Source: Arachnia propionica | Lineage (GTDB): Bacteria; Actinomycetota; Actinomycetes; Propionibacteriales; Propionibacteriaceae | DNA: 64,000 nt | Direction of reading: 5' to 3' | Assembly (NCBI RefSeq): GCF_003859805.1 | Contig: NZ_RQZG01000007.1 | Location: forward strand, 88,312 to 152,311 | Part shown: positions 1 to 12,806 of the stretch, piece by piece | Position numbering within the stretch: the stretch's first letter is position 1 | Layout of the letters: every line of letters starts with the position of its first letter | Notes under the pieces: generated by a model | The model's input: only the letters and a program-made list of their open reading frames with translations | Told to the model about the DNA's origin: nothing | Database searches by the model: none | Program-made: the position numbers and the translations under genes

Positions 1-69
1 ACGAGTTCACGGCTTCGGGCGTGCAGCCCATCTTCGACTATCACCGCGCAAACGCAGAAAGGATCAACC

Positions 70-1023
70 ATGAGCGTGCTGAAGAACTTGCAGGAGCAGC
101 AGTCGAGTTCGCCGACGTCGAATCCCTCGATGTCGAGGCTCGACGCCATCGAGCAGCAGTTGACCAAGCTGACCACGGCAGTGAGCGAGCTGGCGCAGTA
201 CGTGAAGGTGATGGACGAAGCCCAGACGGGCAAGCTGACCGCGTTGACCTCGCAGCAGCGCGAGCAGCCCTCGAGGCCGCAGCTCGACGACGAGACGAGG
301 AGCAGGATCGCCGAGATCGAAAAGACGCTCGCCGCCGTCGCATCGCAGCTGAGCAGCAGCGAAGCCGTGAAACTGCCCGACGGGTCGTCGGTGCGCAGGT
401 CAGACTTGGATGCGCACTCGATGATGGCGAGGATCGAGAAGCAGCTCGCGACGACGGCCCAGAGTTCGGCTGAGCTCGCGGAGGCTGTGAAGAAGCGGGG
501 TCGGGTGACTATCGACGTCGACAAGGTCAACGCGCACTTCGCCGGTCAGCTCGACGGGCGGCTCCAGAAGGCGCTGGAGCCCTCAGTCGCACGCCTTGAG
601 CAAGCTCTCGACGGATTCGAGGCCCGGGTGGCTAACGTTGGCAGGCAGCGCGCTGTACAGGCCGTCCAGGAGGTCGAGGCAGTCGTTGCCAAGGCCGACG
701 ATGTGGTGGACGCTGTGAAGGCCGCTGAACGGCGTGTGGCCGCATTGGAGAGCAAGGTGACGTGGACTGCCGTCGGGCGCATGGGGCTGGCGCTACTGCC
801 GTTGACCGCCGTGCTCCTCGTGATCGGCGGGCTCGTCGGGGGTGTGGCCTACGCCGCCGGGGTCGGTCCGCTTCTGGGCTGGGCCTGGGGTTCATTCTCG
901 GGAACATCGGTGTGGTGGCAAAAGGCGCTCATCGCCATCGGGACGTTGGGCGGGCTGGCAGGGTTCGGTGCGCTCGTGTGGTGGTTGGCCCAGCGGCTCG
1001 GTGAGGACTTCCGGCACTGGTGA
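70..1023 (+). CDS. Hypothetical coiled-coil protein with two C-terminal transmembrane helices (island cargo)
   Basis: 317-aa ORF with ordinary composition, long Ala/Glu/Gln-rich helical region and a hydrophobic C-terminus (LALLPLTAVLLVIGGLVGGVAYAAG...). The overlapping 21..473 ORF is Arg/Ala-rich and was treated as a frame artefact. Confidence 0.45.
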   Translation: MSVLKNLQEQQSSSPTSNPSMSRLDAIEQQLTKLTTAVSELAQYVKVMDEAQTGKLTALTSQQREQPSRPQLDDETRSRIAEIEKTLAAVASQLSSSEAVKLPDGSSVRRSDLDAHSMMARIEKQLATTAQSSAELAEAVKKRGRVTIDVDKVNAHFAGQLDGRLQKALEPSVARLEQALDGFEARVANVGRQRAVQAVQEVEAVVAKADDVVDAVKAAERRVAALESKVTWTAVGRMGLALLPLTAVLLVIGGLVGGVAYAAGVGPLLGWAWGSFSGTSVWWQKALIAIGTLGGLAGFGALVWWLAQRLGEDFRHW

Positions 1024-1067
1024 TGAAAACAGAACCCCGCAGCCATCGGCTGCGGGGTTCTTGGATG

Positions 1068-1634
1068 TCAGAGGTCACGGAACACGAAAACACCGTACGC
1101 AGGCGCTGGGGCGTTGACGACGCTGAACTCCTGCTGCAGGTCGCGGGTCCATGCGTTCCAGTCGAAGTAGCGTTGGGCTTCCTCGGGCCAGCCGGTAGTC
1201 AGACCGATGTCGTCGGCGAGCTGTTCGGCATACTCGCGGAAGCTGTCCCACAGCCCGCAGTAGCACTCCTCGAAGTCGCTGAGGCACGGGATCTCGCCAG
1301 TACCCTCGGCAACGTACGCGCCTGAGCGCACCCAGGCGCACAGCGCTGGCCAGCGCTCGACCCCCACCTCGGTATAGACGCGCCCCCACTCAGCAGCCTC
1401 CAACAGATCCATCTCATGGTCGACGGGGAGGCAGTCCAGGTCGAGGCACCAGATCTCCTCACACCCCACGTACGGGCCGTCTGCGCCCTCGTGGATGGTC
1501 TCCAGGGTGATCTCGGCGACATCGGTGCATTCGACCCAGCAGCCGACGAGGCGGCCGGCGTTGTAGCAGTTCAAACAGGCGGCCCAGACGCGGGGCGCGA
1601 TGTGAGTGGTGACGGTCATGGTGTTCTCCTCCAA
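1068..1634 (-). CDS. ardA: Antirestriction protein ArdA (DNA-mimic inhibitor of type I RM)
   Basis: Acidic 188-aa protein. The N-terminus PRVWAACLNCYNAGRLVGCWVE matches the ArdA signature (Tn916 ArdA: VYIANLGKYNEGELVGAWF). The C-terminus YFDWNAWTRDL...YGVFVF matches the ArdA YIDYQAYGRDL...GIFEI block. Unusually Cys-rich (11 Cys). Confidence 0.85.
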   Translation of the reverse strand: MEENTMTVTTHIAPRVWAACLNCYNAGRLVGCWVECTDVAEITLETIHEGADGPYVGCEEIWCLDLDCLPVDHEMDLLEAAEWGRVYTEVGVERWPALCAWVRSGAYVAEGTGEIPCLSDFEECYCGLWDSFREYAEQLADDIGLTTGWPEEAQRYFDWNAWTRDLQQEFSVVNAPAPAYGVFVFRDL

Positions 1635-1736
1635 GCAGTTCGGATGAGAACGGGGCCCGACCGGCCGTGCTCGGAGAATCAGCGCTTACACCGGACTCCC
1701 GCTCTCAGGAGGGCTCCCGGCGCCGCGTTGCGGTGC

Positions 1737-1958
1737 CTACTCGTGCAGCGCCAATCGCAGCCCCAGCGAGTCAGCGACCTTAAGCAATGTGGATGAGGAG
1801 ACGGACTTGCCCGCTTCAAGGCGGGTCACCGTGAGGCGTGAAACTCCTGCGTGGGTGGCCAGTTCGGTCTGACTCCACCCGCGTGCCTTTCGAGCCTCGC
1901 GCACCTTCCGTGACAAGGGTGCTGCCCGGCCCCCGGTGTCAACCGTTGAAACAGACAT
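1737..1958 (-). CDS. XRE-family helix-turn-helix transcriptional regulator
   Basis: 73 aa with GWSQTELATHAGVSRLTVTRLEAG, a canonical HTH_XRE. It lies 1 nt downstream of the S-subunit gene and is co-directional with the RM genes. Confidence 0.8.
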   Translation of the reverse strand: MSVSTVDTGGRAAPLSRKVREARKARGWSQTELATHAGVSRLTVTRLEAGKSVSSSTLLKVADSLGLRLALHE

Positions 1959-1959
1959 G

Positions 1960-3432
1960 TCACTCCTCGTCGCCGACGACCCTGATCGAACCGTGGCGCC
2001 CTGTGAGCTGTGAAAGGGCTTGTTCCGCAGCGCTGACTGCCTCAGTTTCGAGGCGGTCGGCTTTGGCGGCCAAGTGGGTCGCCTCGTCGCTCAGATCCGC
2101 GATGGCGTCCTCCTGGGTTCGATCGAACCGCGGAATCGGGACTTGTCGAATGTCCTGGGGGTCCAGATGAGGCACTGAGGTGCCTGACGCGTAGCGGACC
2201 ACACGTGGGCGTCCGTAGTCGACGTGGTTCAGCACGGTCTGGAGGTACCCGGTGCGGACCTTGGTCTGGTCAGGGACGATGCGGATGAGGTCATGGCTGC
2301 CGAAGACGTTGTCGTGATCCCCGGTGAGGACGGTGGTTCGTCCCAAGAGCCCATAGGTCTGCCCAGAGCAGGCCATGATGATCCATCCGGCCTTGAGCAT
2401 GTAGCGCTCGGGATCGGGCAGCAGGGCAGAGTAGATGCGCTTGGTGACGGGCGGGTTCACGTCGAATAGTTCGCTGGCGGAGCGGTACGGGGTGCCGTTT
2501 GGGCCGAAGTATCGCTTGAAGCGGGAGCCCACGGACACCGACTCGACCAGGTCCTCCAGCGCCTCAACCGAGTTCGACGCGAGCTCGACGCGGTGTTCGA
2601 GCCAGACGACGTCAGCGCGATGGAACTGCCCCTCGATGCGGCGACGGCCGGACCAGATGTCTGAGGCTCGGATGGTCACCGTCGGGCTGTCGGGTGCGGG
2701 CGTGCCGCCTGGGTTGACCAGCTCGGCCAACATAGCGTCTGCTTTGGCCTGCAGTCGACGAGACGCCTGGCGCATCTCCAGCGCGTTCTTCGCATCCTGC
2801 CCGATGGCGTTTCGAGCGATGGCATCCGGCATGGCCACCGGCATCGCCAGCACGTGCTCCGGTTCCAGGTGCTTGATCATGTGGCCGTACTGGGAGCTGC
2901 GCGCGATGGCGAAGAACGTCGGCGTCTTCATGTAGGCGTACAGCCAGCCGTAGTCCTGTGGATTGTGGGGCACGATGCGCAGCAGGTCGTGGGTGATGAC
3001 CTTGTTGAGGTGTTCGTCGTAGACAGCGGTCAGGCGACCCACCTCGCCGGAACACGAGAGCAGCAGCCAGTCACGCTCAAGGTAGCGGGTCTCCACAGCG
3101 GGCACCATCGCTTCTGCGAGCCATTTGCGCACTCGATGCTGACTCTCCAGGACCTGGCCGGCCGACAGGAACGGCAGACCCTTGCCCGGGTCGACGGGGT
3201 ATCCCTTGAGCCGGGAGGGTTGCCACACCGCGGCGAGGTCGGACATGGGGACAGTCGACGGCACCGCCTCCAGCCCTTGACGCAGGCCGAAGCCATCGGT
3301 GAGGAAGGTGGATGCTTCCAGCCGTCGATCGCCTCCGGTGAGCATCTTCACGCTCACCGGTGCCCACAGCACGTCGGAGTTTATCGCCGGCCCGGCCGGC
3401 GCGAGGGCCTTGTTCAGAGCGTGCTCAGCCAT
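1960..3432 (-). CDS. Restriction-modification specificity (S) subunit with two target-recognition domains
   Basis: 490 aa with a clear internal duplication (WLLLSCSGEVGRLTAVYDEHLNKVITHDLLRIVP versus WIIMACSGQTYGLLGRTTVLTGDHDNVFGSHDLIRIVP), typical of HsdS/BcgIB-type subunits. Its start overlaps the stop of the upstream nuclease-MTase gene (3414..3432), suggesting an operon. Confidence 0.7.
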   Translation of the reverse strand: MAEHALNKALAPAGPAINSDVLWAPVSVKMLTGGDRRLEASTFLTDGFGLRQGLEAVPSTVPMSDLAAVWQPSRLKGYPVDPGKGLPFLSAGQVLESQHRVRKWLAEAMVPAVETRYLERDWLLLSCSGEVGRLTAVYDEHLNKVITHDLLRIVPHNPQDYGWLYAYMKTPTFFAIARSSQYGHMIKHLEPEHVLAMPVAMPDAIARNAIGQDAKNALEMRQASRRLQAKADAMLAELVNPGGTPAPDSPTVTIRASDIWSGRRRIEGQFHRADVVWLEHRVELASNSVEALEDLVESVSVGSRFKRYFGPNGTPYRSASELFDVNPPVTKRIYSALLPDPERYMLKAGWIIMACSGQTYGLLGRTTVLTGDHDNVFGSHDLIRIVPDQTKVRTGYLQTVLNHVDYGRPRVVRYASGTSVPHLDPQDIRQVPIPRFDRTQEDAIADLSDEATHLAAKADRLETEAVSAAEQALSQLTGRHGSIRVVGDEE

Positions 3433-5378
3433 GCCTTGAACTCCTTGGCGATGTCCTGGGTGTTGTCGTCGACCACGCGCTCCTTGGCGAGGTGCTGCTG
3501 CTCGTCGTCGTCGCCGTCCGCAGCTGTGGTGACCGCGTCGGCGGTCTCACGCACGATCTCGAAGCCCTGGTCGTCCCGCATGTAGACGGCGTTGCCGCGC
3601 TTGTCATGGCCGATCCGGTCACAGATGGCCATGAAGATCTCGTAGTCCTTGATCCTGCCTGCTGCGATCTCATCTCGGATCTGGCGCTCTGACTTGCGCT
3701 GCAGGACCAAGACGGAGGTCTGCACGCTGGTGCCGGGCTGGAAGGTGTCAGGGTGGAGGTCTACCGAGGCAAGGATGGTCGTGTGCGTGAGGATCCACTG
3801 GCGCACGAAGCCGAGGCCGGGGCTGCCCAGGATGCCGTCCGGCAGCACGAGCGCCGCGCGGCCGGTCCCAGACTTGAGAAGCTGCACACATCGCTCGATG
3901 AAGAGGATCTCCGGCGGCCGAGAGGTTGTCTTGGTCGTCTTCATCCAGGTGTCGGTGTCCTCGTCGTAGTCCCACTGGTGGCCGAGGTCGAACTGTTCCA
4001 GGATGGCCGGGTCATCGATGGGAATTTTCGAGCCGAACGGCGGGTTGGTGAGGATCACGTCGACCGCCCCCATCAGGTTGCGGGCACGCAGGTCATCGTT
4101 CCAGCGTGACGATGCGTCCAGTGAGTTGGCCTGGTACAGGCCACCGGAGCCGTCGTTGTTCATGACCATGTTCATCTTCGTGGCGCGCACGAGGTTGGGG
4201 TTGAAGTCCAGCCCCACGAGGTTGTGCTCCAGGAAGTATCGTTTGCGGTCACGGATCGACTCGTCCTGCAGCTGCCGGCTGCGTCCGGAAGCCCGCACCT
4301 CGGTCTTGATCGAGGAAACGACGTGGTTCATAGCGGCGATCAGGAAGCCACCGGTGCCACAGGCGGGGTCGAGGATGAGGTCCTTGTCGCTGGGGTCCAG
4401 CATCTCGACCATCATGTTGCAGACGTTGCGGGGGGTGAAGAACTCGCCTCGGTCCCCGCGCAGGTTGGAGCCCACCACCTCTTCGTAGGCCTTGCCCTTG
4501 ACGTCGACGTCGGAGTCCAGCAGGGAGAACATCTGGAGCTGGGTCACGATGTAGGCCAACACCTTGTCTTCGAGCTCGATGGTCTCGTTGGCCTTGAAGA
4601 TCTGCGAGTACTGACGCTTGACACTGTCGAACAGCTTGCCGATGCGGCTCGCGCATCGCATCAGCCCAGTAATATTCTGGCGCTCCTTGGGGGTGGCGTA
4701 GAACTGGGGGTCACTGGACTCACGCTCGTCCTGGATCTTGCAGAAGATGAGCTTGAGCAGCTCCCAGAAGGCCTCGGGCTTCTGCATGCCCTGGTTGCCC
4801 GCGATGTAACTGTGTGCACGCCGGAAGGCGAACAGCAGCGAGTCGGACGCCGCGGGTCGCAGCTGGTCAAAGCGCGGGGTGCCAGCCTCAGCGGTGTCCC
4901 CGCAGTGCGGGATGTCGGGGATCTCTACCGACACTCGGCTGCCGTTGCCGTCGGTATCGAACGCGAAGGAGGCCATGTCCTCGCCGTTGGTCCACATGCC
5001 AACCTCGACGTTGGGGCACGCAGCCATGTAGCTGAGCATCTGCTCGACCCCGTCCTTCTTCATCGAGGGGCGGATCTTGGCGCTCTTGCACTCGATGATG
5101 AGCCAGGCAGCCGCTTGAGTCTGCTCGGCGGGGCGCAGCCCGGGCGGGAACACGGCGATGTCGACACGGACGCGCTTGCTGCCGAACTTGATCGGGAACT
5201 CCACGCGGATGTCCTGCTTGGCGTAGCCGTACTCGCGCACCAAGGACTTCAGGATCTCTTGGCGGACATACTCCTCGGGAGTGTCCTGCCGAAGGGTGAT
5301 GCCGTCAATGAAGTCGAGCACCTTCCCCGGTGGCACGATGGCCAAGCCACCATGCGGAGCGTCAACCTGGATCGTCAT
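3414..5378 (-). CDS. Fused restriction endonuclease / N6-adenine DNA methyltransferase (BcgI-like type IIB RM subunit, or type I-like HsdM with an HsdR_N nuclease domain)
   Basis: The N-terminal ~130 aa has a PD-(D/E)xK pattern (VDIAVF...LIIECKS) resembling the HsdR N-terminal nuclease fold. Then come gamma-class MTase motifs: FFTPRNVCNMMVEMLDP, DPACGTGGFL (motif I) and ILTNPPFG (motif IV). No separate helicase-type HsdR is in the locus. Confidence 0.8.
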   Translation of the reverse strand: MTIQVDAPHGGLAIVPPGKVLDFIDGITLRQDTPEEYVRQEILKSLVREYGYAKQDIRVEFPIKFGSKRVRVDIAVFPPGLRPAEQTQAAAWLIIECKSAKIRPSMKKDGVEQMLSYMAACPNVEVGMWTNGEDMASFAFDTDGNGSRVSVEIPDIPHCGDTAEAGTPRFDQLRPAASDSLLFAFRRAHSYIAGNQGMQKPEAFWELLKLIFCKIQDERESSDPQFYATPKERQNITGLMRCASRIGKLFDSVKRQYSQIFKANETIELEDKVLAYIVTQLQMFSLLDSDVDVKGKAYEEVVGSNLRGDRGEFFTPRNVCNMMVEMLDPSDKDLILDPACGTGGFLIAAMNHVVSSIKTEVRASGRSRQLQDESIRDRKRYFLEHNLVGLDFNPNLVRATKMNMVMNNDGSGGLYQANSLDASSRWNDDLRARNLMGAVDVILTNPPFGSKIPIDDPAILEQFDLGHQWDYDEDTDTWMKTTKTTSRPPEILFIERCVQLLKSGTGRAALVLPDGILGSPGLGFVRQWILTHTTILASVDLHPDTFQPGTSVQTSVLVLQRKSERQIRDEIAAGRIKDYEIFMAICDRIGHDKRGNAVYMRDDQGFEIVRETADAVTTAADGDDDEQQHLAKERVVDDNTQDIAKEFKAWLSTL

Positions 5379-5494
5379 GGAGCGATTCTCTCTTCCTCAT
5401 CCTGCAGCGGCACCCGACCGGGCAGCAAACCTCAATGTATCAAAACTGTTACATCCTGAGAAGGCGTCAAGGGCGAGCAAACAGCGAAGGCGCT

Positions 5495-7051
5495 TCACAT
5501 CTCGCCAGTCGCAACCGCGCCACCAAAGTCGACGTCGACCGATGCTGGATCGAAGCCCTTGCGCCCGCGGGGCTGCGGGTAGAGTGTCACCGTGGCGAGC
5601 GTGTCGATGACCTGCCGCTGAACCTCGAGAGGTGCCTCGCGGAACGCCGCCGCCGGGTCCTCAGTTCCCAAGATCGGGGCCAGCACCCCGCCCCGACCTC
5701 GCAGCAGGCGCTCAGCCTCAAGCTCCGCGATCCGAGCCTCCGCCGCTTCGCGAATGCGCTTGAGGTCGCGGCCCTCGATCACTTCAGCGTCGTAGTCCCG
5801 CTGCGCCCGAAGGATACGACCGCGTTGCTCAGCGATGGAGGCGCTGATTCCTGAAGTGTCTGGGGCCTTGTCGCTCGTCTTGTGCTTGGCGAGGGCGTCC
5901 GGCTGACCGAGCCGACCAGCGATGACCTCGGTAACGAACTCGTCGATGTGGCTGCCTGTTCGCATCACATGCCCCGCGCAGCGGTATCCGCGTGGCGCTC
6001 CCGTCACCTTGCCGCCACACACAGCGCATCGGTACAGGCCGGAGCCCAGGTGCTTGCGCTTGGTCGAGCCCGAGGTGTTCGTGACCCGCTCGGTGTTGTC
6101 GAGGATGTCCTGGGCACGCCACCAGGTCTCGTCGTCGACGATGGCTTCCCACTGCCCCCGGATGGGCTCGCCTGCGTCGTCACGAAGGATCTGCGCACGC
6201 CAGGAGCGCCGACGACCACCGTCGGCTTGTGCGGTCTTCGGCGTATAGGTGGACATCCGCGCGTACCGGGGGTTCCGCAGGATGCCCAGCACGGTCGAGG
6301 GGCTCCACGGGCCGTCAGGTTCGATGGGGCGGGGCTCCTTGCCCGCGGCGAGCCTTCGCTCAGCCCGCTCGGAGGACACCACGTGGGAGTGCTTGGGCCG
6401 GGGCGAGATCCCTTTGATCTCCTGCGTGCCGCTGAGGGCACGCGCAAGCGAGCGCAGGGACTCCGGGTGTGCGGGCCGCGTGAACAGGGTGTAGATCGCC
6501 TGGACCGCTTGTGCTTCGTCGGGAAGGACATCGCCGTTGGTCGCGTAGCCAAGCGGCCTCATACCCTTGGGAGCGCGGCCTTGCTTAGCGCGTTGCAGCT
6601 GCGCCGCCGACTGGCGCGCGCCCTTGCGCTCCATCTCGGCCCGGGCGACGGCGGCCTTGATGCGGGCGTACATGCGCCCGCCATCCGTGGACAGGTCGGC
6701 GTCGCCGTTAGCGGTGACGAGAGCAAGCCCGTTGAGCTCGGCCGCGTCGATCCAGTCCTCAAGCTGGCGGGGCTGACGAGTTAGCCGGTCGAGGTCATAG
6801 CAGATGATCGCGGTAAACCGACCCGCCTTATAGTCGGCCACCATGCGGTCGTAGTCGGGCCGCGACTTCGTCCTGTCAGTGGCGCTCTTCGACTGGTCGA
6901 CGTAGGTCTCGACGACCTCCCACTGACGATACTTAGCCAGGGCCTCACACTGCTCGCGTTGCCGGTCGATGGCCAAGCCATCCATCTCCCTGTCTTGAGA
7001 GATGCGCAGATAGATGGCCGCCTTGCGGGACGTGGCGAGGGGATGACTCAT
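5495..7051 (-). CDS. Large serine recombinase (serine integrase)
   Basis: The N-terminus AAIYLRISQD is the resolvase catalytic-Ser region. It has a central recombinase domain and a zinc-ribbon YRCAVCGGKVTGAPRGYRCAGH. It has a coiled-coil C-terminus; 518 aa. Confidence 0.9.
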   Translation of the reverse strand: MSHPLATSRKAAIYLRISQDREMDGLAIDRQREQCEALAKYRQWEVVETYVDQSKSATDRTKSRPDYDRMVADYKAGRFTAIICYDLDRLTRQPRQLEDWIDAAELNGLALVTANGDADLSTDGGRMYARIKAAVARAEMERKGARQSAAQLQRAKQGRAPKGMRPLGYATNGDVLPDEAQAVQAIYTLFTRPAHPESLRSLARALSGTQEIKGISPRPKHSHVVSSERAERRLAAGKEPRPIEPDGPWSPSTVLGILRNPRYARMSTYTPKTAQADGGRRRSWRAQILRDDAGEPIRGQWEAIVDDETWWRAQDILDNTERVTNTSGSTKRKHLGSGLYRCAVCGGKVTGAPRGYRCAGHVMRTGSHIDEFVTEVIAGRLGQPDALAKHKTSDKAPDTSGISASIAEQRGRILRAQRDYDAEVIEGRDLKRIREAAEARIAELEAERLLRGRGGVLAPILGTEDPAAAFREAPLEVQRQVIDTLATVTLYPQPRGRKGFDPASVDVDFGGAVATGEM

Positions 7052-7060
7052 GCCACCAGT

Positions 7061-8146
7061 TTACTTCTTAGAAGTTAGTCCTGTCCTGAACTCGACCACG
7101 TCGCCGTCGGCCATGACGTAGTCCTTGCCCTCGAGGCGCAGCTTGCCCGCAGCCTTGGCCGCGGCCTCGGAACCCGCCTCGACGAGGTCGTCGAAGCTCA
7201 CGACCTGGGCCTTGATGAAGCCCTTCTGGAAGTCGGTGTGGATGACGCCCGCCGCCTCGGGTGCCGTCGCCCCCTGCGGGATCGTCCAGGCCCTGGCCTC
7301 CTTCGGCCCCGCTGTGAGGTAGGACTGCAGGCCGAGGGTCGCGTAGCCGACGCGCGCCAGGACGTCGAGGCCCGGCTCCTCCACCCCCATCTCCTCGAGG
7401 AAGGCGCGCCCCTCCTCCTCGTCCATCTCCACCAGCTCCGACTCGAACTTCGCGTCCAGGAAGATGGCCTCCGCCGGGGCCACCACCTCGCGCATCCGTG
7501 CCTTGAGCTCCTCGTCCGCCAACTCGTCCTGGTCGCAGTTGAAGACGTAGATGAACGGCTTGGCGGTCAGGAGGAACAGATCCCTCAGGTGTTCCAGCTC
7601 CAGGCCCGAGCCATGCACCCGCTTCCCGGACTCCAGCACCTGCACCGCCGCCTGCATCGCCTCCAGCTTCGGGCGCGACTCCTTCTTGATCCGCGCCTCC
7701 TTCTCCACGCGCGGCAGCGCCTTCTCCAGGGTCTGCAGATCAGCCAGGATCAGCTCGGTGGTGATGGTGTCGATGTCCCCCGCCGGGTCCACCTTCCCGT
7801 CGACGTGGGTGACGTCCTCATCCTCGAACACCCGGGTCACCTGGCAGATCGCGTCGGCCTCACGGATGTTGGCCAGGAACGCGTTGCCCATGCCCTCACC
7901 CTTCGAGGCCCCCCGCACGATGCCCGCGATGTCCACGAAACTCACCGTCGCAGGCAGGATCCGCGCCGACCCGTAGATCTCGGCCAGCACCGGCAGCCGC
8001 GCATCGGGCACCCCGACGACGCCGACGTTCGGCTCGATCGTCGCGAACGGGTAGTTCGCCGCCAGCACGTTGTTGCGGGTCAGCGCGTTGAACAGGGTCG
8101 ACTTGCCGGCGTTGGGGAGACCGACGATTCCAATGGTGAGAGCCAC
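7061..8146 (-). CDS. ychF: Ribosome-binding ATPase YchF (Obg-family GTPase)
   Basis: [22 protein letters not shown] is the G1 motif, with a TGS-like C-terminus. The likely true start is the GTG at 8146 (VALTIG) rather than the ORF-track start at 8203. C-terminus is noted in findings. Confidence 0.9.
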
Positions 8147-9680: not shown

Positions 9681-10901
9681 TCACTGCCACCACCGTCGCA
9701 ACCCATCGAGACGGCACAACATCTCGACGGCCTCCGGGGCACGCCTGTCTCCCGGAACCAGCGCCCCCGGGAGCACCCGGGTGCGCCCCGAATCCTCCAC
9801 GACAACCACCTGCCGACTCCGAAGCATCGTGTGCATGGAGCTCTCGCCCACCCTCGTGAGCTGTCCCCGGCACCACACCGCGAAGCCACGCACCCGGTGC
9901 CAGGGAATGGTCCGACGCCAGAACACCCGCGAGATGTGGACCCCGTCGTCGCCGATGCGGGTCTCCCCGAAGAGGAGGCTGATCAGGAACACCACCACAC
10001 CCAGGCTGCCCCCGGCGACGATCAGGAACCAGATCATGAGGGCGGTGGGAAACCCGGGGAACCCCTTGCCCACGGCGAGGAGGATCCCTGCCATGTGGCC
10101 AAGCACCCCGGCCACCAGGAAGATGACCATCGTGCAGAGCGCCTTGAACCACACAGGTGTCCGGAACACCTGCTCGCTCCCTGCGGACAACGGGATGCGG
10201 TCGGCGTCATGACGACGCACGACCTCACTGACGTCAAGGGGCTGTCCCGACGCGATGCCGAGCACTGCACCGTCGGGCAGCACCGCCACGTGACGTCCTG
10301 GCCTGAGCGGCGCGAACCGGTACCCGAGATGATCGACGGCGCTGCCGTCCGCCGGCCAGCCGCGCCCCCGGTGCACCACGGACTCGTCGATGGCCATGAA
10401 GGCCGTTCCCTGCCCGGTCGAGATCCGCTGGCCGATCACCTGGGCGGCCGCGTACGCCTCCTCCTGTCCCGCCTCGGGCGGCAGGATCAGGGCCAGGGTC
10501 TCGACCTTCTTCGTGAGGTAGTCCAAGGAGTCGATGATGATCCCCAGATCGGCCTGCCACCACAGGGCCCCACCCGCCATGAACTCGGCATGGCTGCGAC
10601 GAACCCGCCTCCGCTGCATGACGGCGGGGACGACGATCCCGAGCAGGCAGCCGACGGCGGTCAAGGAGCTCACCACCGCGATGATCAGCATCGGCGGCGT
10701 CGCGAAGGAGAACCGGCCACCCGCCGCGGAGAGGATCAGGATCACCGGCACCCACATCGCGCCGGCGGCCAGGGAGGACAGCACGAAACCGATCCACAGG
10801 ATCACCAGCCGACCACACGGACGACGCCGGTCCCACGCATTCCTCATGAAGAAACCACGATCCTGCACCTGGGTGTTCAGTTCTCCCGGATTCAACCCCA
10901 T
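9681..10901 (-). CDS. Polytopic membrane protein with a bacterial PH (YdbT/bPH_2-like) C-terminal domain; paralogue of 11544..12806
   Basis: Two TM clusters plus a cytoplasmic region and a C-terminal ...RVFWRRTIPWHRVRGF... motif. It starts MGLNPGELN..., paralleling the paralogue's MGVKNGAMD.... It shares blocks with the paralogue (ALWWQADLGIIIDSLD vs ELCWQADLGIVIDAVD; GQRISTGQGTAFMAI vs GQRIAAARGTSFMAV; HLGYRFAPLRPGRHVAVLPDGAVLGI vs DLGHRFAPMGPGRYVAVLPDGAALGI). Confidence 0.6.
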   Translation of the reverse strand: MGLNPGELNTQVQDRGFFMRNAWDRRRPCGRLVILWIGFVLSSLAAGAMWVPVILILSAAGGRFSFATPPMLIIAVVSSLTAVGCLLGIVVPAVMQRRRVRRSHAEFMAGGALWWQADLGIIIDSLDYLTKKVETLALILPPEAGQEEAYAAAQVIGQRISTGQGTAFMAIDESVVHRGRGWPADGSAVDHLGYRFAPLRPGRHVAVLPDGAVLGIASGQPLDVSEVVRRHDADRIPLSAGSEQVFRTPVWFKALCTMVIFLVAGVLGHMAGILLAVGKGFPGFPTALMIWFLIVAGGSLGVVVFLISLLFGETRIGDDGVHISRVFWRRTIPWHRVRGFAVWCRGQLTRVGESSMHTMLRSRQVVVVEDSGRTRVLPGALVPGDRRAPEAVEMLCRLDGLRRWWQ

Positions 10902-10956
10902 GGCCTCATTCTTCACATGGGTGGGGTCATTCCACGAGACATCTGGGATGCAGCCG

Positions 10957-11448
10957 TCACCTGCGCCCCGTCGCTCTGATGGCGGCAGCAAGGAGCTTCC
11001 GCACCGAATGGGTGTTCACCCAGCGTGGCACCTCACGTCGATACTGCTCGAAGTCGTCCGCGAAGGCCTCGGCCAGTGCCGCTTCCTCCTCCGGGATCTG
11101 GAGACGATCGATGACCAGGCCGAACGCTGCAGCCGGGAGAAGTGCGACGGCCGACCTGCGGAGCAGGGCGTGAGCGACCAGTGCACTCGTCATCCCGACG
11201 TACATCGGATTGCGGGTCACCTGGTTCGGCCCACTGGTCACCAAGGACCTCACAGCGCCGACATCGACCGGATCAACGGTGGTGCGCTGTGCCCGAAACC
11301 TGAGGACGCTGCCGCCGATCAGCCACGCTGCCGCGGCCCACCATGGTGTGCTCGCCGCAGCTGAGCCCCAGGTGCCCTTCTGCCCTCTGCAGATCCCGTG
11401 CTGCACTGTGGCCGCAGCCAGCAGCAGCACCACCGGGGGAATCCTCAC
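10957..11448 (-). CDS. Isoprenylcysteine carboxyl methyltransferase (ICMT/PEMT)-family membrane methyltransferase
   Basis: 163-aa hydrophobic protein with ...TSGPNQVTRNPMYVGM..., resembling the ICMT/phospholipid-methyltransferase H/RNPxY motif. It is sandwiched between the two paralogous membrane proteins on the same strand. Confidence 0.6.
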   Translation of the reverse strand: MRIPPVVLLLAAATVQHGICRGQKGTWGSAAASTPWWAAAAWLIGGSVLRFRAQRTTVDPVDVGAVRSLVTSGPNQVTRNPMYVGMTSALVAHALLRRSAVALLPAAAFGLVIDRLQIPEEEAALAEAFADDFEQYRREVPRWVNTHSVRKLLAAAIRATGRR

Positions 11449-11543: not shown

Positions 11544-12806
11544 TCACTGCCGCGCACGTCGGAACTCATCGAGCTGGCACAGTCGCTCAACGACCCATTG
11601 AGGCCGCGCCTGTCGTCGGCGACTCCGGTACTCCAGTCCCGACAACCTCCTGGCCCGACCGCTCCGATCGACCACGACGATCTGGTACAGGTAGCCAACG
11701 TTCCCGTGGTGCTCCGAGCCCCAGTTGGACTCATTCGACCGATCACTCGTCCCGCTGCGCATCACGCCGAAACCCCGTACCTGGTTCCACGGCAGCGACC
11801 ATCGATGCAGCGGGCTCATCATGTGGATCCCCTCGGTGGCGACGAGGGTCTTGGCGAACAAGCTGTTCAGCACATACACCAGCAAGGGGATCAGGGCCGC
11901 GGGTATGGTCCAGGAAATGACCCGGAAGAACACGCCGGAGGATGTGCTGAACGAGCGCCACAGGCTGTGGCTGCCAAAGGCCATGAAAGCGATGCAGACC
12001 AGGACCGCCAGCTTGGCCAGGACGGACTGACGGAAGACCATCTCGCCACCGGAGCACCTGAACTGTGGCTTCCTGCCCTGCTCCTGCACGATCCCGCTGA
12101 CGTCCAGCGGCTGTCCCACCCCCGGGTCGATGCCGAGAGCCGCACCGTCGGGCAGCACCGCAACGTAGCGTCCCGGGCCCATCGGGGCGAACCGGTGCCC
12201 GAGGTCGTCAACCCCGACCCCATGCCTCGGCCAGTCCCGTCCGGTCTGCACCAGGGTGCTCTCGACGGCCATGAAGGATGTCCCTCGGGCCGCAGCGATC
12301 CGTTGCCCGATCACCGCTGCCGCCTGCTGTGCCTGATCCTCTGACGCGTCGAGCGGCAGGATCAGTCCCAGCATGGCTACCTGCTTCGACTCGTTGTCCA
12401 CCGCATCGATGACGATCCCGAGATCGGCCTGCCAGCACAGTTCACCCCCTTCCTGGAAGGCAACGTAATCGCCACGCCTCCAGAACAGACGCCCGATGGC
12501 CGGTACCACGAGCACGAGCAGGCAGATGACGGAGACGATGCCAAGGAGCAACATCCCGAACAGCAGCGACACCCCCGTGTCGAAGTACGCATTCCCCTTC
12601 GGTCCCGAGTTGTTCGGAAGGTCCCGCAGCATCAGGTGCAGCGCGACCGCTCCCGAAAGGGACAGCAGGAACAGGACCGCCGACACCACGACGGTGGTTC
12701 GGGAGCGTCTCCGTCTGCCCACGTGCCGCTTGAAGAAGCCGGGATCACGCAGTTGGGTGAGCAGGTGGTCCGCGTTCGGGTCCATGGCCCCATTCTTCAC
12801 ACCCAT
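11544..12806 (-). CDS. Polytopic membrane protein with bacterial PH-like C-terminal domain; paralogue of 9681..10901
   Basis: See the paralogue. The C-terminus has ...WSLPWNQVRGFGV...; same architecture, ~35-40% identity by eye. Confidence 0.6.
   Translation of the reverse strand: MGVKNGAMDPNADHLLTQLRDPGFFKRHVGRRRRSRTTVVVSAVLFLLSLSGAVALHLMLRDLPNNSGPKGNAYFDTGVSLLFGMLLLGIVSVICLLVLVVPAIGRLFWRRGDYVAFQEGGELCWQADLGIVIDAVDNESKQVAMLGLILPLDASEDQAQQAAAVIGQRIAAARGTSFMAVESTLVQTGRDWPRHGVGVDDLGHRFAPMGPGRYVAVLPDGAALGIDPGVGQPLDVSGIVQEQGRKPQFRCSGGEMVFRQSVLAKLAVLVCIAFMAFGSHSLWRSFSTSSGVFFRVISWTIPAALIPLLVYVLNSLFAKTLVATEGIHMMSPLHRWSLPWNQVRGFGVMRSGTSDRSNESNWGSEHHGNVGYLYQIVVVDRSGRARRLSGLEYRSRRRQARPQWVVERLCQLDEFRRARQ

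What the first reader, a model, noticed from the sequence alone, without database searches (positions are those of the whole stretch)
1068..7060. Defence/anti-defence cargo on a serine-integrase element: fused nuclease-MTase + S subunit + XRE + Cys-rich ArdA
Four co-directional genes (5378->1068) carry a two-component RM system. The 654-aa protein fuses an HsdR_N-like PD-(D/E)xK nuclease domain to a gamma-class N6A methyltransferase (DPACGTGGFL / NPPF). The S subunit has an internal TRD duplication. No helicase-type HsdR is present, so this looks like a BcgI-like type IIB (or non-canonical type I-derived) system. An XRE HTH gene follows 1 nt after the S gene, which suggests a controller-protein-like regulator. 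ArdA, a type I RM DNA-mimic inhibitor, sits at the end. This ArdA has 11 cysteines, which is atypical for the family. Carrying both an RM system and an antirestriction factor suggests the element both defends and invades.
Basis: partly seen in the sequence, partly recalled or inferred. Interest (0 to 1): 0.65.

Follow-up and report, generated by a model that had tools for sequence, protein, structure and literature searches.

The report
Swappable restriction cassette on integrative element
A mobile DNA element inserted next to the ychF gene carries a three-gene restriction-modification cassette of a widespread helicase-less type in a slot that holds other defence genes in sister elements; this is a tidy but ordinary example of a known pattern.

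Summary
All five genes are intact on the minus strand: serine integrase, a 654-aa PD-(D/E)xK nuclease fused to a gamma-class m6A methyltransferase, a 490-aa S subunit, a 73-aa XRE regulator and ArdA.

New here:
- Sister elements share integrase, ArdA and the other backbone genes, and two of them sit at ychF. In the integrase-ardA slot they carry ThsB-like TIR or a PLD/Eco57I-type RM instead. So RM+XRE is swappable cargo and ArdA is backbone.
- An 18-bp palindrome (TGTATC-N6-GATACA type) upstream of M occurs only in loci that also carry the XRE. This supports an autoregulator.
- The ArdA clade has a Cys/His tetrad that Tn916 ArdA lacks, probably a zinc site.

Cleavage activity is inferred, not shown. 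Verdict: new member of a known kind, moderate interest.

The parts
7061..8146 (-). ychF (redox-regulated ATPase). This is the chromosomal gene that abuts the element; its stop codon lies 9 nt from the integrase ATG.
   Evidence: NCBIfam TIGR00092 scores 437 bits against a cut-off of 279. Related elements sit at the same gene in L094 and L097.
7082..7093 (-). GAGTTCAGGACA inside the last codons of ychF. This is a candidate crossover region (att core) and is only a lead.
   Evidence: The same 12-mer (1 mismatch or none) forms the right half of an 8+2+8 palindrome, TGTTCTGA-GT-TCAGAACA, about 30 nt upstream of int in L097 and L098. Not proven.
5495..7051 (-). Large serine recombinase (integrase), a backbone gene of the element.
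   Evidence: Pfam Resolvase plus Recombinase; PHROG 95 integrase 290 bits. It is 91% identical to the integrase of the sister element L097. A 57%-identical C-terminal remnant lies upstream of M on the Tessaracoccus plasmid.
1737..5544 (-). Cargo cassette: operator, RM subunit, S subunit and XRE. It occupies the variable slot between int and ardA.
   Evidence: DNA homology to sister element L097 stops at window 5544 and resumes at 1736, the base next to the XRE stop codon. In the same slot L097 and L098 carry ThsB-like TIR, and L094 carries a PLD-type REase plus an M.Eco57I-like MTase. GC is 0.62-0.65 here against 0.67-0.70 in the chromosome.
5436..5453 (.). 18-bp palindrome (TGTATCAAAACTGTTACA on the + strand), TGTATC-N6-GATACA type. 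It lies 57 nt upstream of the M ATG and is the probable XRE operator.
   Evidence: It occurs once in the window, and in 0 of 100 shuffles. Among 99 loci it is found only upstream of M in loci that also encode the orthologous XRE: the source contig, L088 and L089-L092. It is absent from XRE-less M-S loci.
3414..5378 (-). RM subunit: an N-terminal PD-(D/E)xK nuclease (HSDR_N_2) joined by a helical connector to a gamma-class N6-adenine methyltransferase.
1960..3432 (-). Specificity (S) subunit with two TRD-CR halves. It overlaps the RM gene by 19 nt.
   Evidence: NCBIfam MAD5 scores 249 bits against a cut-off of 400; it matches many PADLOC Specificity_I/II models. The halves are 28% identical, E 1e-18. 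An orthologous S follows M in 73 of 81 loci.
1737..1958 (-). XRE-family HTH protein (73 aa). Its ATG lies 1 nt after the S stop codon, which suggests translational coupling. It is the probable autoregulator of the cassette.
   Evidence: HTH_3 1e-13. Orthologues lie directly after S on the Tessaracoccus plasmid and in L089-L092.
1068..1619 (-). ArdA antirestriction protein (183 aa, pI 4.05, 11 Cys), a backbone gene with its own conserved upstream region.
   Evidence: Pfam ArdA 82.7 bits. The fold matches 2w82 with TM 0.66-0.73. C15, C/H18, H43 and C/H53 are always Cys or His in 118 of 120 homologues; Tn916 ArdA has N, K, K and Y at these positions. Backbone homology to L097 covers 1138-1736.
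1031..1061 (-). Strong intrinsic terminator: a 14-bp stem followed by a T tract. It lies between the convergent ardA and 317-aa genes.
   Evidence: the sequence is visible.
70..1023 (+). 317-aa coiled-coil protein with hydrophobic C-terminal segments (read from the translation), of unknown function. A 322-aa gene occupies the same position next to ardA in L097, but BLASTP found no similarity to it at E <= 1e-5.
   Evidence: Only weak coiled-coil hits. Same position as the 322-aa gene of L097.

Best explanation
Window 1-7060 is the integrase-proximal part of an integrative element of about 13 kb or more, inserted at the 3' end of ychF by a large serine recombinase.

**Backbone and cargo.** The backbone genes are int, ardA, a 1047-aa protein, DUF3223 and an HTH_17 protein (the 317-aa protein sits where L097 has a 322-aa gene, without detectable similarity). 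Between int and ardA lies a variable slot. Here the slot holds a 3.8-kb cassette: operator, RM subunit, S subunit and XRE.

**How the cassette most likely works (inferred).**
- The RM and S proteins assemble as (RM)2S, as in BcgI, BsaXI and type I methyltransferase cores.
- S reads a bipartite target.
- The gamma-class domain makes m6A on both strands. This has been shown for the homologous MAD2/MAD5 pair.
- The N-terminal PD-(D/E)xK domain cuts unmethylated DNA without any ATP-driven motor. The enzyme would thus be a 'motor-less type I', that is, a type IIB-like restriction enzyme.
- The XRE, translated last from the same mRNA, binds the TGTATC-N6-GATACA palindrome upstream of M and autoregulates the operon.

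**Role of ArdA.** ArdA is an acidic DNA mimic made from the backbone. It protects the element from type I restriction in a new host. It is not specifically tied to this cargo.

**What is shown:** gene content, domain architecture, invariant catalytic residues, modularity of the M+S pair, the cargo-slot structure, and the co-occurrence of palindrome and XRE.

**What is inferred:** subunit stoichiometry, nuclease activity, the target type, XRE binding and ArdA activity.
For: **Architecture and residues.** BsaXI's catalytic residues E73, D90, E105 and K107 (PMC11997821) have counterparts here; D73 aligns with D90. BsaXI RM is the top solved structure in all three comparisons:
- phmmer 1e-27
- Foldseek 8e-25 over 630-800 columns, against 6e-17 for HsdM

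**Autonomy of the M+S pair.**
- At least 445 stretches confirmed in species-representative genomes; 80 loci were examined, from many phyla, at 55-62% identity.
- S follows M, with a median overlap of about 21 nt, in 73 of 81 loci.
- No other conserved neighbour was found. Flanking genes are heterogeneous: GmrSD, Schlafen/AlbA, alpha-2-macroglobulin, PQQ dehydrogenase.
- There is no HsdR in the window.
- A two-gene system with the same architecture in Zymomonas (HsdR_N-HsdM plus HsdS) restricts plasmids independently of HsdR (PMC8432527).
- MAD2 methylates a bipartite motif on both strands (bioRxiv 10.1101/2023.03.30.534895).

**Element family.**
- L097 and L098 share int (91%), the 1047-aa protein (85%), DUF3223 (83%), HTH_17 (68%) and ArdA (68%), and L097 sits at ychF, which itself is only 76% identical; L098 ends short of ychF. 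Both carry ThsB-like TIR in the slot.
- L094 carries a PLD-type REase plus an Eco57I-like MTase in the slot.
- A Tessaracoccus MOBF plasmid carries an int remnant, then M (88.8%), S, XRE and a truncated ArdA.

**Regulator.** The palindrome is unique in the window and is present exactly where the XRE is present.

**ArdA.**
Against: - No biochemical or methylome data exist for this protein or for any close relative that I could link by sequence.
- In canonical MADS, the homologous MAD2+MAD5 pair does not defend on its own; mad3, mad4 and mad6-8 are required. Yet MAD2 keeps similar D/E/K residues. Conserved residues therefore do not prove a self-sufficient nuclease.
- Sequence similarity to BsaXI is significant only over the MTase part. 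The N-terminal alignment scores -3 bits.
- The rest of the host genome is unseen, so a trans-acting HsdR or other effector cannot be excluded.
- No sigma-70-like promoter was found by the consensus scan.
- Neither att site is defined, and the far end of the element lies outside both the window and the source contig.
Confidence: 0.65

Rival explanations
1. Modification-only module. M+S is a solitary bipartite m6A methyltransferase, used for epigenetic marking or for protecting the element. On this reading the N-terminal nuclease-like domain no longer cuts DNA and is kept for DNA binding or assembly.
For: - Public annotation calls these proteins only 'N-6 DNA methylase'.
- In MADS the homologous MAD2/MAD5 pair provides methylation, while defence needs other genes.
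- Engineered HsdR-nuclease-HsdM fusions methylated but did not restrict (PMC6158711).
Against: - E60, D73, E96 and K98 are invariant across 45 homologues down to 58% identity, together with about 30 other N-domain positions. That pattern is hard to explain for a non-catalytic domain.
- The same architecture in Zymomonas restricts plasmids.
- The cassette sits in a slot that otherwise holds defence genes.
- A dedicated repressor-like XRE is typical of toxic RM modules.
Confidence: 0.15
2. Incomplete system that needs partners encoded elsewhere. The partner would be either a classical HsdR (making this an ordinary type I system with a dispersed R gene) or MADS-type effectors (MAD3, 4, 6-8).
For: - The strongest curated matches are MADS MAD2/MAD5.
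- Some bacteria share one HsdR among several M-S pairs (stated in PMC8432527).
- Only 64 kb of the host genome is visible.
Against: - Scores are below both NCBIfam cut-offs: 627.7 against 720, and 249 against 400. The same holds for six other members of the two-gene family.
- A genuine MADS operon (L100) scores far above the cut-offs for MAD1-7 and has a different gene order, with mad3 and mad4 between mad2 and mad5.
- The M+S pair moves between plasmids, integrative elements and chromosomes of many phyla with no conserved partner.
- A mobile cassette that depended on a host gene would be useless after transfer.
- There is no HsdR or MADS gene in the window or the element.
Confidence: 0.12
3. 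ArdA and the RM cassette are functionally coupled. ArdA binds the element's own type-I-like (RM)2S complex and acts as an establishment brake, blocking restriction before modification in a naive host.
For: - The int remnant, M, S, XRE and ArdA lie together on two different replicons: the window and the Tessaracoccus plasmid.
- No terminator separates the XRE from ardA.
- ArdA binds type I M2S cores, and the predicted enzyme has that core. A published study title reports that ArdA's antirestriction and antimodification activities can be separated by mutation (Roberts et al. 2013, cited in PMC6158711).
Against: - ArdA and its 117-nt upstream region are backbone. They are kept at about 80% DNA identity next to unrelated cargo (TIR) in L097, and ArdA is kept at 83% protein identity next to a type II RM in L094.
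- None of the 80 other M-S loci has this ArdA nearby. In Gordonia an ArdA lies 6 kb away on the other strand.
- Whether DNA mimics act on type IIB-like enzymes is untested (PMC6158711).
Confidence: 0.08

Closest known systems
BcgI/BsaXI-type (two-subunit) type IIB restriction-modification enzymes
   Same: - The RM polypeptide has an N-terminal PD-(D/E)xK nuclease followed by a gamma-class N6A MTase.
- A separate S subunit with two TRDs is encoded next to it.
- There is no ATP motor.
- The catalytic E...D...ExK set is present.
- BsaXI RM is the best solved structural match.
   Different: - Identity to BsaXI is only about 20-24%, and the N-domain is not detectably similar by sequence.
- The protein is 654 aa against 916 aa, and the alignment to BsaXI ends near its residue 628 of 916, so a counterpart of its C-terminal 'paddle' (residues 811-823, PMC11997821) was not detected.
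- The S subunit is larger (490 aa).
- Double-sided cleavage at fixed distances has not been shown.
[quoted passage not shown]
MADS (methylation-associated defence system) MAD2/MAD5, Maestri et al.
   Same: - The window proteins give full-length matches to the NCBIfam MAD2 model (positions 4-653 of 654) and to MAD5.
- MAD2 has the same fused architecture.
- A verified MAD2 (L100) is 38.9% identical over 97% of the length.
- A bipartite m6A target is expected.
   Different: - Scores are below the equivalog cut-offs.
- MAD1, MAD3, MAD4, MAD6 and MAD7 are absent from the element proteins scanned, and nothing resembling the >1,800-aa mad8 gene of L100 lies next to S (MAD8 itself was not scanned for).
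- S directly overlaps M, instead of lying after mad3 and mad4.
- The regulator is an XRE downstream of S, not an excisionase-type HTH upstream.
Zymomonas mobilis ZM4 HsdMSc (ZMO1934/ZMO1933)
   Same: It is a two-gene system: an HsdR_N domain fused to HsdM, plus HsdS, with no HsdR. It methylates a bipartite site and restricts incoming plasmids independently of the plasmid-borne HsdR (PMC8432527).
   Different: Homology to the window proteins could not be tested, because no sequence was available in these tools. PADLOC has at least three distinct models with this architecture, so it may belong to a different lineage.
Controller (C) proteins of type II RM systems
   Same: The XRE is a small HTH protein co-transcribed with the RM genes. 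A palindromic site upstream of the operon occurs only where the regulator is present.
   Different: - It is the last gene of the operon, not the first.
- The palindrome TGTATC-N6-GATACA showed no resemblance to the GACT...AGTC-type C-boxes I recall (a judgement from memory; C-box consensus was not checked with a tool).
- PADLOC Control_protein matches are weak (1.7e-5).
- R and M are one polypeptide, so delaying R relative to M by transcription is impossible. Only dosage control is possible.
ArdA of Tn916 (Orf18, PDB 2w82)
   Same: The Pfam family is the same, the three-domain fold is the same (TM 0.66-0.73), and the protein is very acidic (33 D/E against 9 K/R).
   Different: Identity is only about 22-24%. 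Its clade has an invariant or near-invariant Cys/His tetrad (C15, C/H18, H43, C/H53) in the N-terminal domain, where Tn916 ArdA has N, K, K and Y. This is a probable structural zinc site.
Defence-cargo hotspots of mobile elements (ICE hotspots, P4-like satellites, prophage moron slots)
   Same: A conserved backbone carries one slot that holds alternative defence systems in sister elements integrated at the same chromosomal site.
   Different: Here the element is a small actinobacterial serine-integrase element at ychF, with the slot between int and ardA. I know of no description of this particular family. That statement rests on my own knowledge; no literature search was aimed at it.

Membership tests
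Type IIB (BcgI-like) RM | One polypeptide carries a PD-(D/E)xK nuclease domain and a gamma-class N6-adenine MTase | tested here: met
   HSDR_N_2 at 34-157 plus N6_Mtase at 291-565; motif I lies before NPPF. The model is confident, pLDDT 84.
Type IIB (BcgI-like) RM | Catalytic acidic/Lys residues of the nuclease are conserved | tested here: met
   E60, D73, E96 and K98 are invariant in 45 sequences. D73 aligns with BsaXI D90 (PMC11997821).
Type IIB (BcgI-like) RM | A separate S subunit with two TRDs is encoded adjacently; no ATP-dependent motor subunit | tested here: met
   S overlaps M, and its halves are 28% identical. No HsdR in the element, the window or 80 related loci. Not testable genome-wide.
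Type IIB (BcgI-like) RM | Detectable relatedness to characterised IIB enzymes | tested here: inconclusive
Type IIB (BcgI-like) RM | [quoted passage not shown] | not testable with these tools
   Needs purified enzyme and mapping of the cleavage sites.
MADS | MAD2 and MAD5 reach the NCBIfam equivalog cut-offs | tested here: not met
   627.7 against 720, and 249.4 against 400. Six other members of the two-gene family are also below. The positive control L100 scores 1015 and 469.
MADS | MAD6-8 (mandatory in the authors' model) and MAD3/MAD4 present in the operon | tested here: not met
   None of the proteins scanned from the window part of the element matched a MADS model other than MAD2/MAD5. The 1047-aa backbone protein had no PADLOC hit. 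None of the ten largest other ORFs of the window has a kinase or AAA-ATPase domain. MAD8 was not scanned for. The definition comes from bioRxiv 10.1101/2023.03.30.534895.
Classical type I RM | HsdR subunit with an SF2 helicase motor | tested here: not met
   Absent from the window and the element. The rest of the genome is unseen.
Classical type I RM | HsdM-type gamma MTase plus a two-TRD HsdS | tested here: met
C-protein-controlled RM | Small HTH regulator in the operon, with a palindromic operator upstream | tested here: met
   XRE at 1737-1958; the palindrome at 5436-5453 is unique in the window and occurs only with the XRE across loci.
C-protein-controlled RM | The C gene precedes R, and a canonical C-box sequence is present | tested here: not met
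   The XRE is the last gene. PADLOC Control_protein matches are weak, E 1.7e-5. That the palindrome is unlike known C-boxes is my own judgement from memory; no C-box consensus was scanned.
ArdA antirestriction | Pfam ArdA above gathering score, ArdA fold, strongly acidic surface | tested here: met
   82.7 bits against 27; 2w82 TM 0.66-0.73; pI 4.05.
ArdA antirestriction | Inhibits type I restriction in vivo or in vitro | not testable with these tools
   Requires an assay.
Large-serine-recombinase integrative element | Resolvase catalytic domain plus recombinase domain; gene at the element's edge next to a conserved host gene | tested here: met
   The int ATG lies 9 nt after the ychF stop codon.
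Large-serine-recombinase integrative element | Defined attL and attR, and an empty site in relatives | tested here: inconclusive
   Sister elements lie at the same gene, and a candidate core was found. The far end lies outside the data, and no empty site was retrieved.

The most novel reading that the evidence does not exclude
The MAD2/MAD5-like two-gene family may be a very large class of autonomous, motor-less, type-I-derived restriction enzymes that has not been characterised biochemically. It was confirmed at 445 or more places in a scan of species-representative genomes across many phyla, and is annotated only as 'N-6 DNA methylase'. On this reading it would be far more common than the classical type IIB enzymes, and it would be the ancestor-like module that MADS later elaborated.

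In the actinobacterial sub-lineage the module would have acquired its own XRE/operator dosage control. It would also ride with a zinc-binding ArdA variant that may or may not spare it.
Probability: 0.3. Interest if true: 0.55.

Novelty: new member of a known kind. Interest (0 to 1): 0.35.

Why it matters
**For annotation.** These common 'N-6 DNA methylase' plus 'hypothetical protein' pairs should be read as candidate complete RM systems. They should be kept apart from MADS.

**For mobile-element biology.** The locus gives a clean natural experiment. One backbone (int, ardA, the 1047-aa protein, HTH_17), found at ychF in the window and in two sister elements, carries three different defence cargos in one slot, and the cargo boundaries are known to the base.

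**For mechanism.** It raises two testable questions:
- Can a fused R-M enzyme be safely established using only an autoregulatory XRE?
- Do DNA mimics such as ArdA act on type IIB-like (RM)2S enzymes? The literature states that this is essentially untested.

None of this overturns current understanding.

Tried and rejected
- **Full MADS system: rejected.** Scores are below the cut-offs, the partner genes are absent, and a real MADS operon (L100) served as a positive control.
- **Classical type I with an adjacent HsdR: rejected**.
- **ArdA as part of the cargo: rejected.** It is backbone.
- **Empty ychF site.** Exact look-ups of the YchF product, intended to find an empty site, returned nothing.
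- **Canonical MADS in E. coli.** A blastn search with a proteobacterial M gene against the E. coli genomes found nothing.
- **Promoters.** The sigma-70 consensus scan found none.
- **ssDNA-promoter-like structure upstream of ardA.** The region folds no better than shuffles, z = -0.40.
- **Rfam.** No hit in the window.
- **Whole-library search with the N-domain.** It returned mostly fragments (900 clusters at E <= 1e-3). The full-length hits are mostly about 590-680 aa, with a few of 874 and 1093 aa. It added little.
- **phmmer of ArdA and of S against the PDB.** No hits.
- **Not done: homology to Zymomonas ZMO1934.** No route to that sequence was available. I ran no further search on a low-odds attempt.
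- **Not done: geometry of the ArdA Cys/His tetrad.** Model coordinates are not exposed, so it could not be measured.

Full report
**1. What is in the sequence**

The window's left end carries five intact co-directional genes on the minus strand, immediately after the chromosomal ychF gene (7061-8146).

| Gene | Coordinates | Size |
|---|---|---|
| Large serine recombinase | 5495-7051 | 518 aa |
| Nuclease-MTase fusion | 3414-5378 | 654 aa |
| S subunit (overlaps M by 19 nt) | 1960-3432 | 490 aa |
| XRE HTH protein (ATG 1 nt after the S stop codon) | 1737-1958 | 73 aa |
| ArdA | 1068-1619 | 183 aa |

- Domain assignments are strong, and GC3 is 0.81-0.88.
- ArdA most likely starts at the ATG at 1619, which lies behind a GGAGGA ribosome-binding site. 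This gives 183 aa rather than 188 aa.
- A 14-bp-stem terminator (1031-1061) closes the block, and a 317-aa coiled-coil gene converges on it.
- The two S halves are 28% identical (E 1e-18). This is the ordinary TRD-CR-TRD-CR plan of a specificity subunit.

**2. The RM proteins**

*Nuclease residues.* In alignments of 10 and of 45 homologues (58-96% identity), the N-terminal residues E60, D73, E96 and K98 are invariant. So are about 30 other positions of that domain.

*Comparison with BsaXI.* Mutagenesis of the type IIB enzyme BsaXI identified E73, D90, E105 and K107 as essential, and they are conserved across type IIB enzymes (PMC11997821). The phmmer alignment places D73 of the window protein on BsaXI D90.

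*Structure.* An AlphaFold2 model (pLDDT 84, pTM 0.82) matches the BsaXI RM subunit best.
- Foldseek gives E 8e-25 over 630-800 columns, against 6e-17 for the best type I HsdM.

*No HsdR.* There is none in the element, and none of the ten largest other ORFs of the window is one. The only helicase found is an MrfA-type DEAD+MZB protein 33 kb away.

**3. A self-contained two-gene module**

- The best 120 database homologues (58% identity or more) are about 650 aa, and nearly all carry HSDR_N_2 plus N6_Mtase.
The 80 best come from Proteobacteria, Acidobacteria, Actinobacteria, Planctomycetes, Chloroflexi, Verrucomicrobia, Bacteroidetes and others, at 55-62% identity.
- In 73 of 81 loci an orthologous S gene of about 480 aa follows, with a median overlap of about 21 nt. 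No other gene cluster is conserved.
- Sampled neighbours are heterogeneous. Some are defence genes (GmrSD, Schlafen/AlbA). Others are plainly unrelated: alpha-2-macroglobulin, PQQ dehydrogenase, 2-oxoacid dehydrogenase E2.

**4. Relation to MADS**

- The strongest curated match is NCBIfam MAD2. It is full length and scores 627.7 bits, below the cut-off of 720. For S the match is MAD5, at 249 bits against 400.
- Six other members of the two-gene family behave the same way: 635-695 bits for M and 248-349 bits for S.
- A Piscinibacter plasmid serves as a positive control. It carries a true MADS operon, with MAD1-7 all above their cut-offs and MAD2 at 1015 bits. Its gene order is HTH, MTase, ATPase, MAD4, S, kinase and so on. 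Its MAD2 is 38.9% identical to the window protein.
- The window system is therefore a sister clade of MAD2/MAD5, not MADS.
- A caveat follows. In MADS, mad3, mad4 and mad6-8 are needed for defence, although MAD2 keeps D/E/K residues at the corresponding places. Nuclease self-sufficiency in the two-gene clade is thus an inference.
- Support for self-sufficiency comes from Zymomonas ZM4. There an HsdR_N-HsdM fusion plus HsdS restricts plasmids independently of HsdR (PMC8432527). I could not test whether that protein belongs to the same lineage.

**5. The element and its cargo slot**

*Extent.* The source contig (Logan SRR9701127_78) extends the element 5.8 kb beyond the window. It adds a 105-aa gene, DUF3223, a 1047-aa protein and an HTH_17 protein, and it ends in an IS481-like repeat.

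*Sister elements.*
- In L097 the order is Peptidase_M18, ychF, three genes (one a DUF1156/HmaB-like MTase), then int, a ThsB-like TIR gene on the opposite strand (PADLOC 340 bits), ArdA, and on to DUF3223, the 1047-aa protein and HTH_17.
- Identities to the window are int 91%, the 1047-aa protein 85%, DUF3223 83%, HTH_17 68% and ArdA 68%. ychF is only 76% identical.
- L098 has the same gene order from the 235-aa gene onwards; its contig ends short of ychF.
- In L094 the order is ychF, an int remnant, a PLD-type REase-like gene, an M.Eco57I-like MTase, then ArdA (83%).

*Cargo boundaries.* DNA homology between the window and L097 stops at window 5544, 49 nt before the int stop codon. It resumes at 1736, the base next to the XRE stop codon. 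The cargo is therefore operator+M+S+XRE. ArdA and its 117-nt leader belong to the backbone.

*Other replicons.*
- A Tessaracoccus flavescens MOBF plasmid carries the same block: an int C-terminal remnant (57% identical), M (88.8%), S, XRE, an IS insertion and a truncated ArdA.
- In other Actinobacteria the same M-S(-XRE) module lies next to a tyrosine integrase (L089-L092).
- It also lies directly against ychF with no integrase (L083-L086 and Nocardia coubleae L003), and in other contexts in Gordonia and Microbacterium.

**6. The XRE**

- The XRE proteins of the window, the plasmid and L089-L092 are orthologous, and each sits directly after S.
- Upstream of M in exactly these loci lies an 18-bp palindrome.

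| Locus | Palindrome | Distance upstream of the M start |
|---|---|---|
| Window (gene strand) | TGTAAC-AGTTTT-GATACA | 57 nt |
| Tessaracoccus plasmid | TGTATC-GAAACT-GATACA | 125 nt |
| L089-L092 | TGTATC-ATTTTC-GATACA | 130 nt |

- The pattern occurs once in the 64-kb window and in 0 of 100 shuffles.
- Among 99 loci it occurs nowhere else. At one mismatch there is a single unrelated hit in 1.6 Mb.
- M-S loci without the XRE (L003, L083, L093) lack it, and so does L087, which has only a more distant HTH about 3 kb away.
- This co-occurrence is good evidence for an autoregulatory operator.
- It differs from classical C-protein control. The regulator is the last gene, and R and M are one polypeptide, so only dosage can be controlled, not the timing of R relative to M.

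**7. ArdA**

- The model is confident (pLDDT 93) and matches Tn916 ArdA (TM 0.66-0.73). The protein is very acidic, with pI 4.05.
- Among 120 homologues (53-83% identity) the Cys count ranges from 1 to 11, with a median of 5.
- Four positions hold only Cys or His in 118 of 120 homologues: C15 (118 of 120), C/H18, H43 (invariant) and C/H53. Tn916 ArdA has N, K, K and Y there.
- I infer a clade-specific structural zinc site in the N-terminal domain. The geometry could not be checked.
- The other cysteines are partly conserved (C94, C58, C121) or lineage-specific.

**8. Verdict**

The refinements are these: the system is a sister clade of MADS, ArdA is backbone, the XRE with its operator belongs to the cargo, and the int-ardA slot is swappable.
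- The kind of system is known from type IIB and 'motor-less type I' enzymes, from HsdR_N-HsdM fusions, from RM genes on mobile elements and from ArdA.
- This is a new member of a known kind and of moderate interest.
- The open points are enzymatic: whether it cleaves, how it cleaves, and whether ArdA touches it.

Noticed in passing
window 7061-7100; L083 7950-8050; L003 9830-10040: The M-S pair lies directly after ychF with no integrase in two other actinobacterial lineages. In L083-L086 the M GTG start overlaps the ychF stop codon (GTGA). In Nocardia coubleae the gap is about 115 nt. M-S DNA identity to the window (76-79%) exceeds that of ychF (72-73%).
   Followed up: partly
L097 5554-5571; window 7082-7093: An 8+2+8 palindrome, TGTTCTGA-GT-TCAGAACA, lies just upstream of int in the sister element. 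It repeats the 3' end of ychF. It may be an att site with a GT crossover, in which case the element would supply the last codons of ychF (tail RTGLTSKK).
   Followed up: partly
window 1068-1619 (ArdA residues 15, 18, 43, 53): A Cys/His tetrad is conserved across 120 actinobacterial ArdA homologues, with C/H interchange at two positions. Tn916 ArdA lacks it. This is probably a clade-specific zinc site.
   Followed up: partly
window 1623-1651: A 10-nt inverted repeat (GTTCTCCTCC / GGATGAGAAC) can pair the ArdA ribosome-binding site with upstream sequence, which might sequester it.
   Followed up: no
L082 226-502 and L088 14922-15197: A 278-nt stretch is 93.5% identical between the far end of the source contig and the Tessaracoccus plasmid, where it lies between the truncated ardA and an IS481-family transposase gene about 700 nt further on. 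It is probably the end of an IS, and it would explain why the contig stops there.
   Followed up: partly
L097 1565-5540: Three genes lie between ychF and int in the sister element: a 235-aa gene, a 689-aa DUF1156/HmaB/PglX-like MTase, and a 356-aa gene. They may be a second, uncharacterised methylation-based defence island stacked at the same site.
   Followed up: partly
window 12173-12239 (-): ARAGORN calls a tRNA-Val(GAC) inside the 420-aa ORF at 11544-12806. Rfam finds no tRNA there at gathering threshold, so it is probably a false positive.
   Followed up: no
window 9681-10991 and 11544-12806 (-): Two unannotated ORFs (436 and 420 aa), read by eye as paralogous membrane proteins, flank a PEMT-like gene (Pfam family). 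Both contain the motif ...GHRFAP..PGR.VAVLPDGA.LGI. They have no Pfam family.
   Followed up: no
window 38659-40968 (+): An MrfA-type helicase (DEAD, Helicase_C, HRQ1 winged-helix and MZB zinc domain), about 2.8 kb from topoisomerase I (33143-35812) on the opposite strand. It looks like a housekeeping gene and is unrelated to the RM system.
   Followed up: yes
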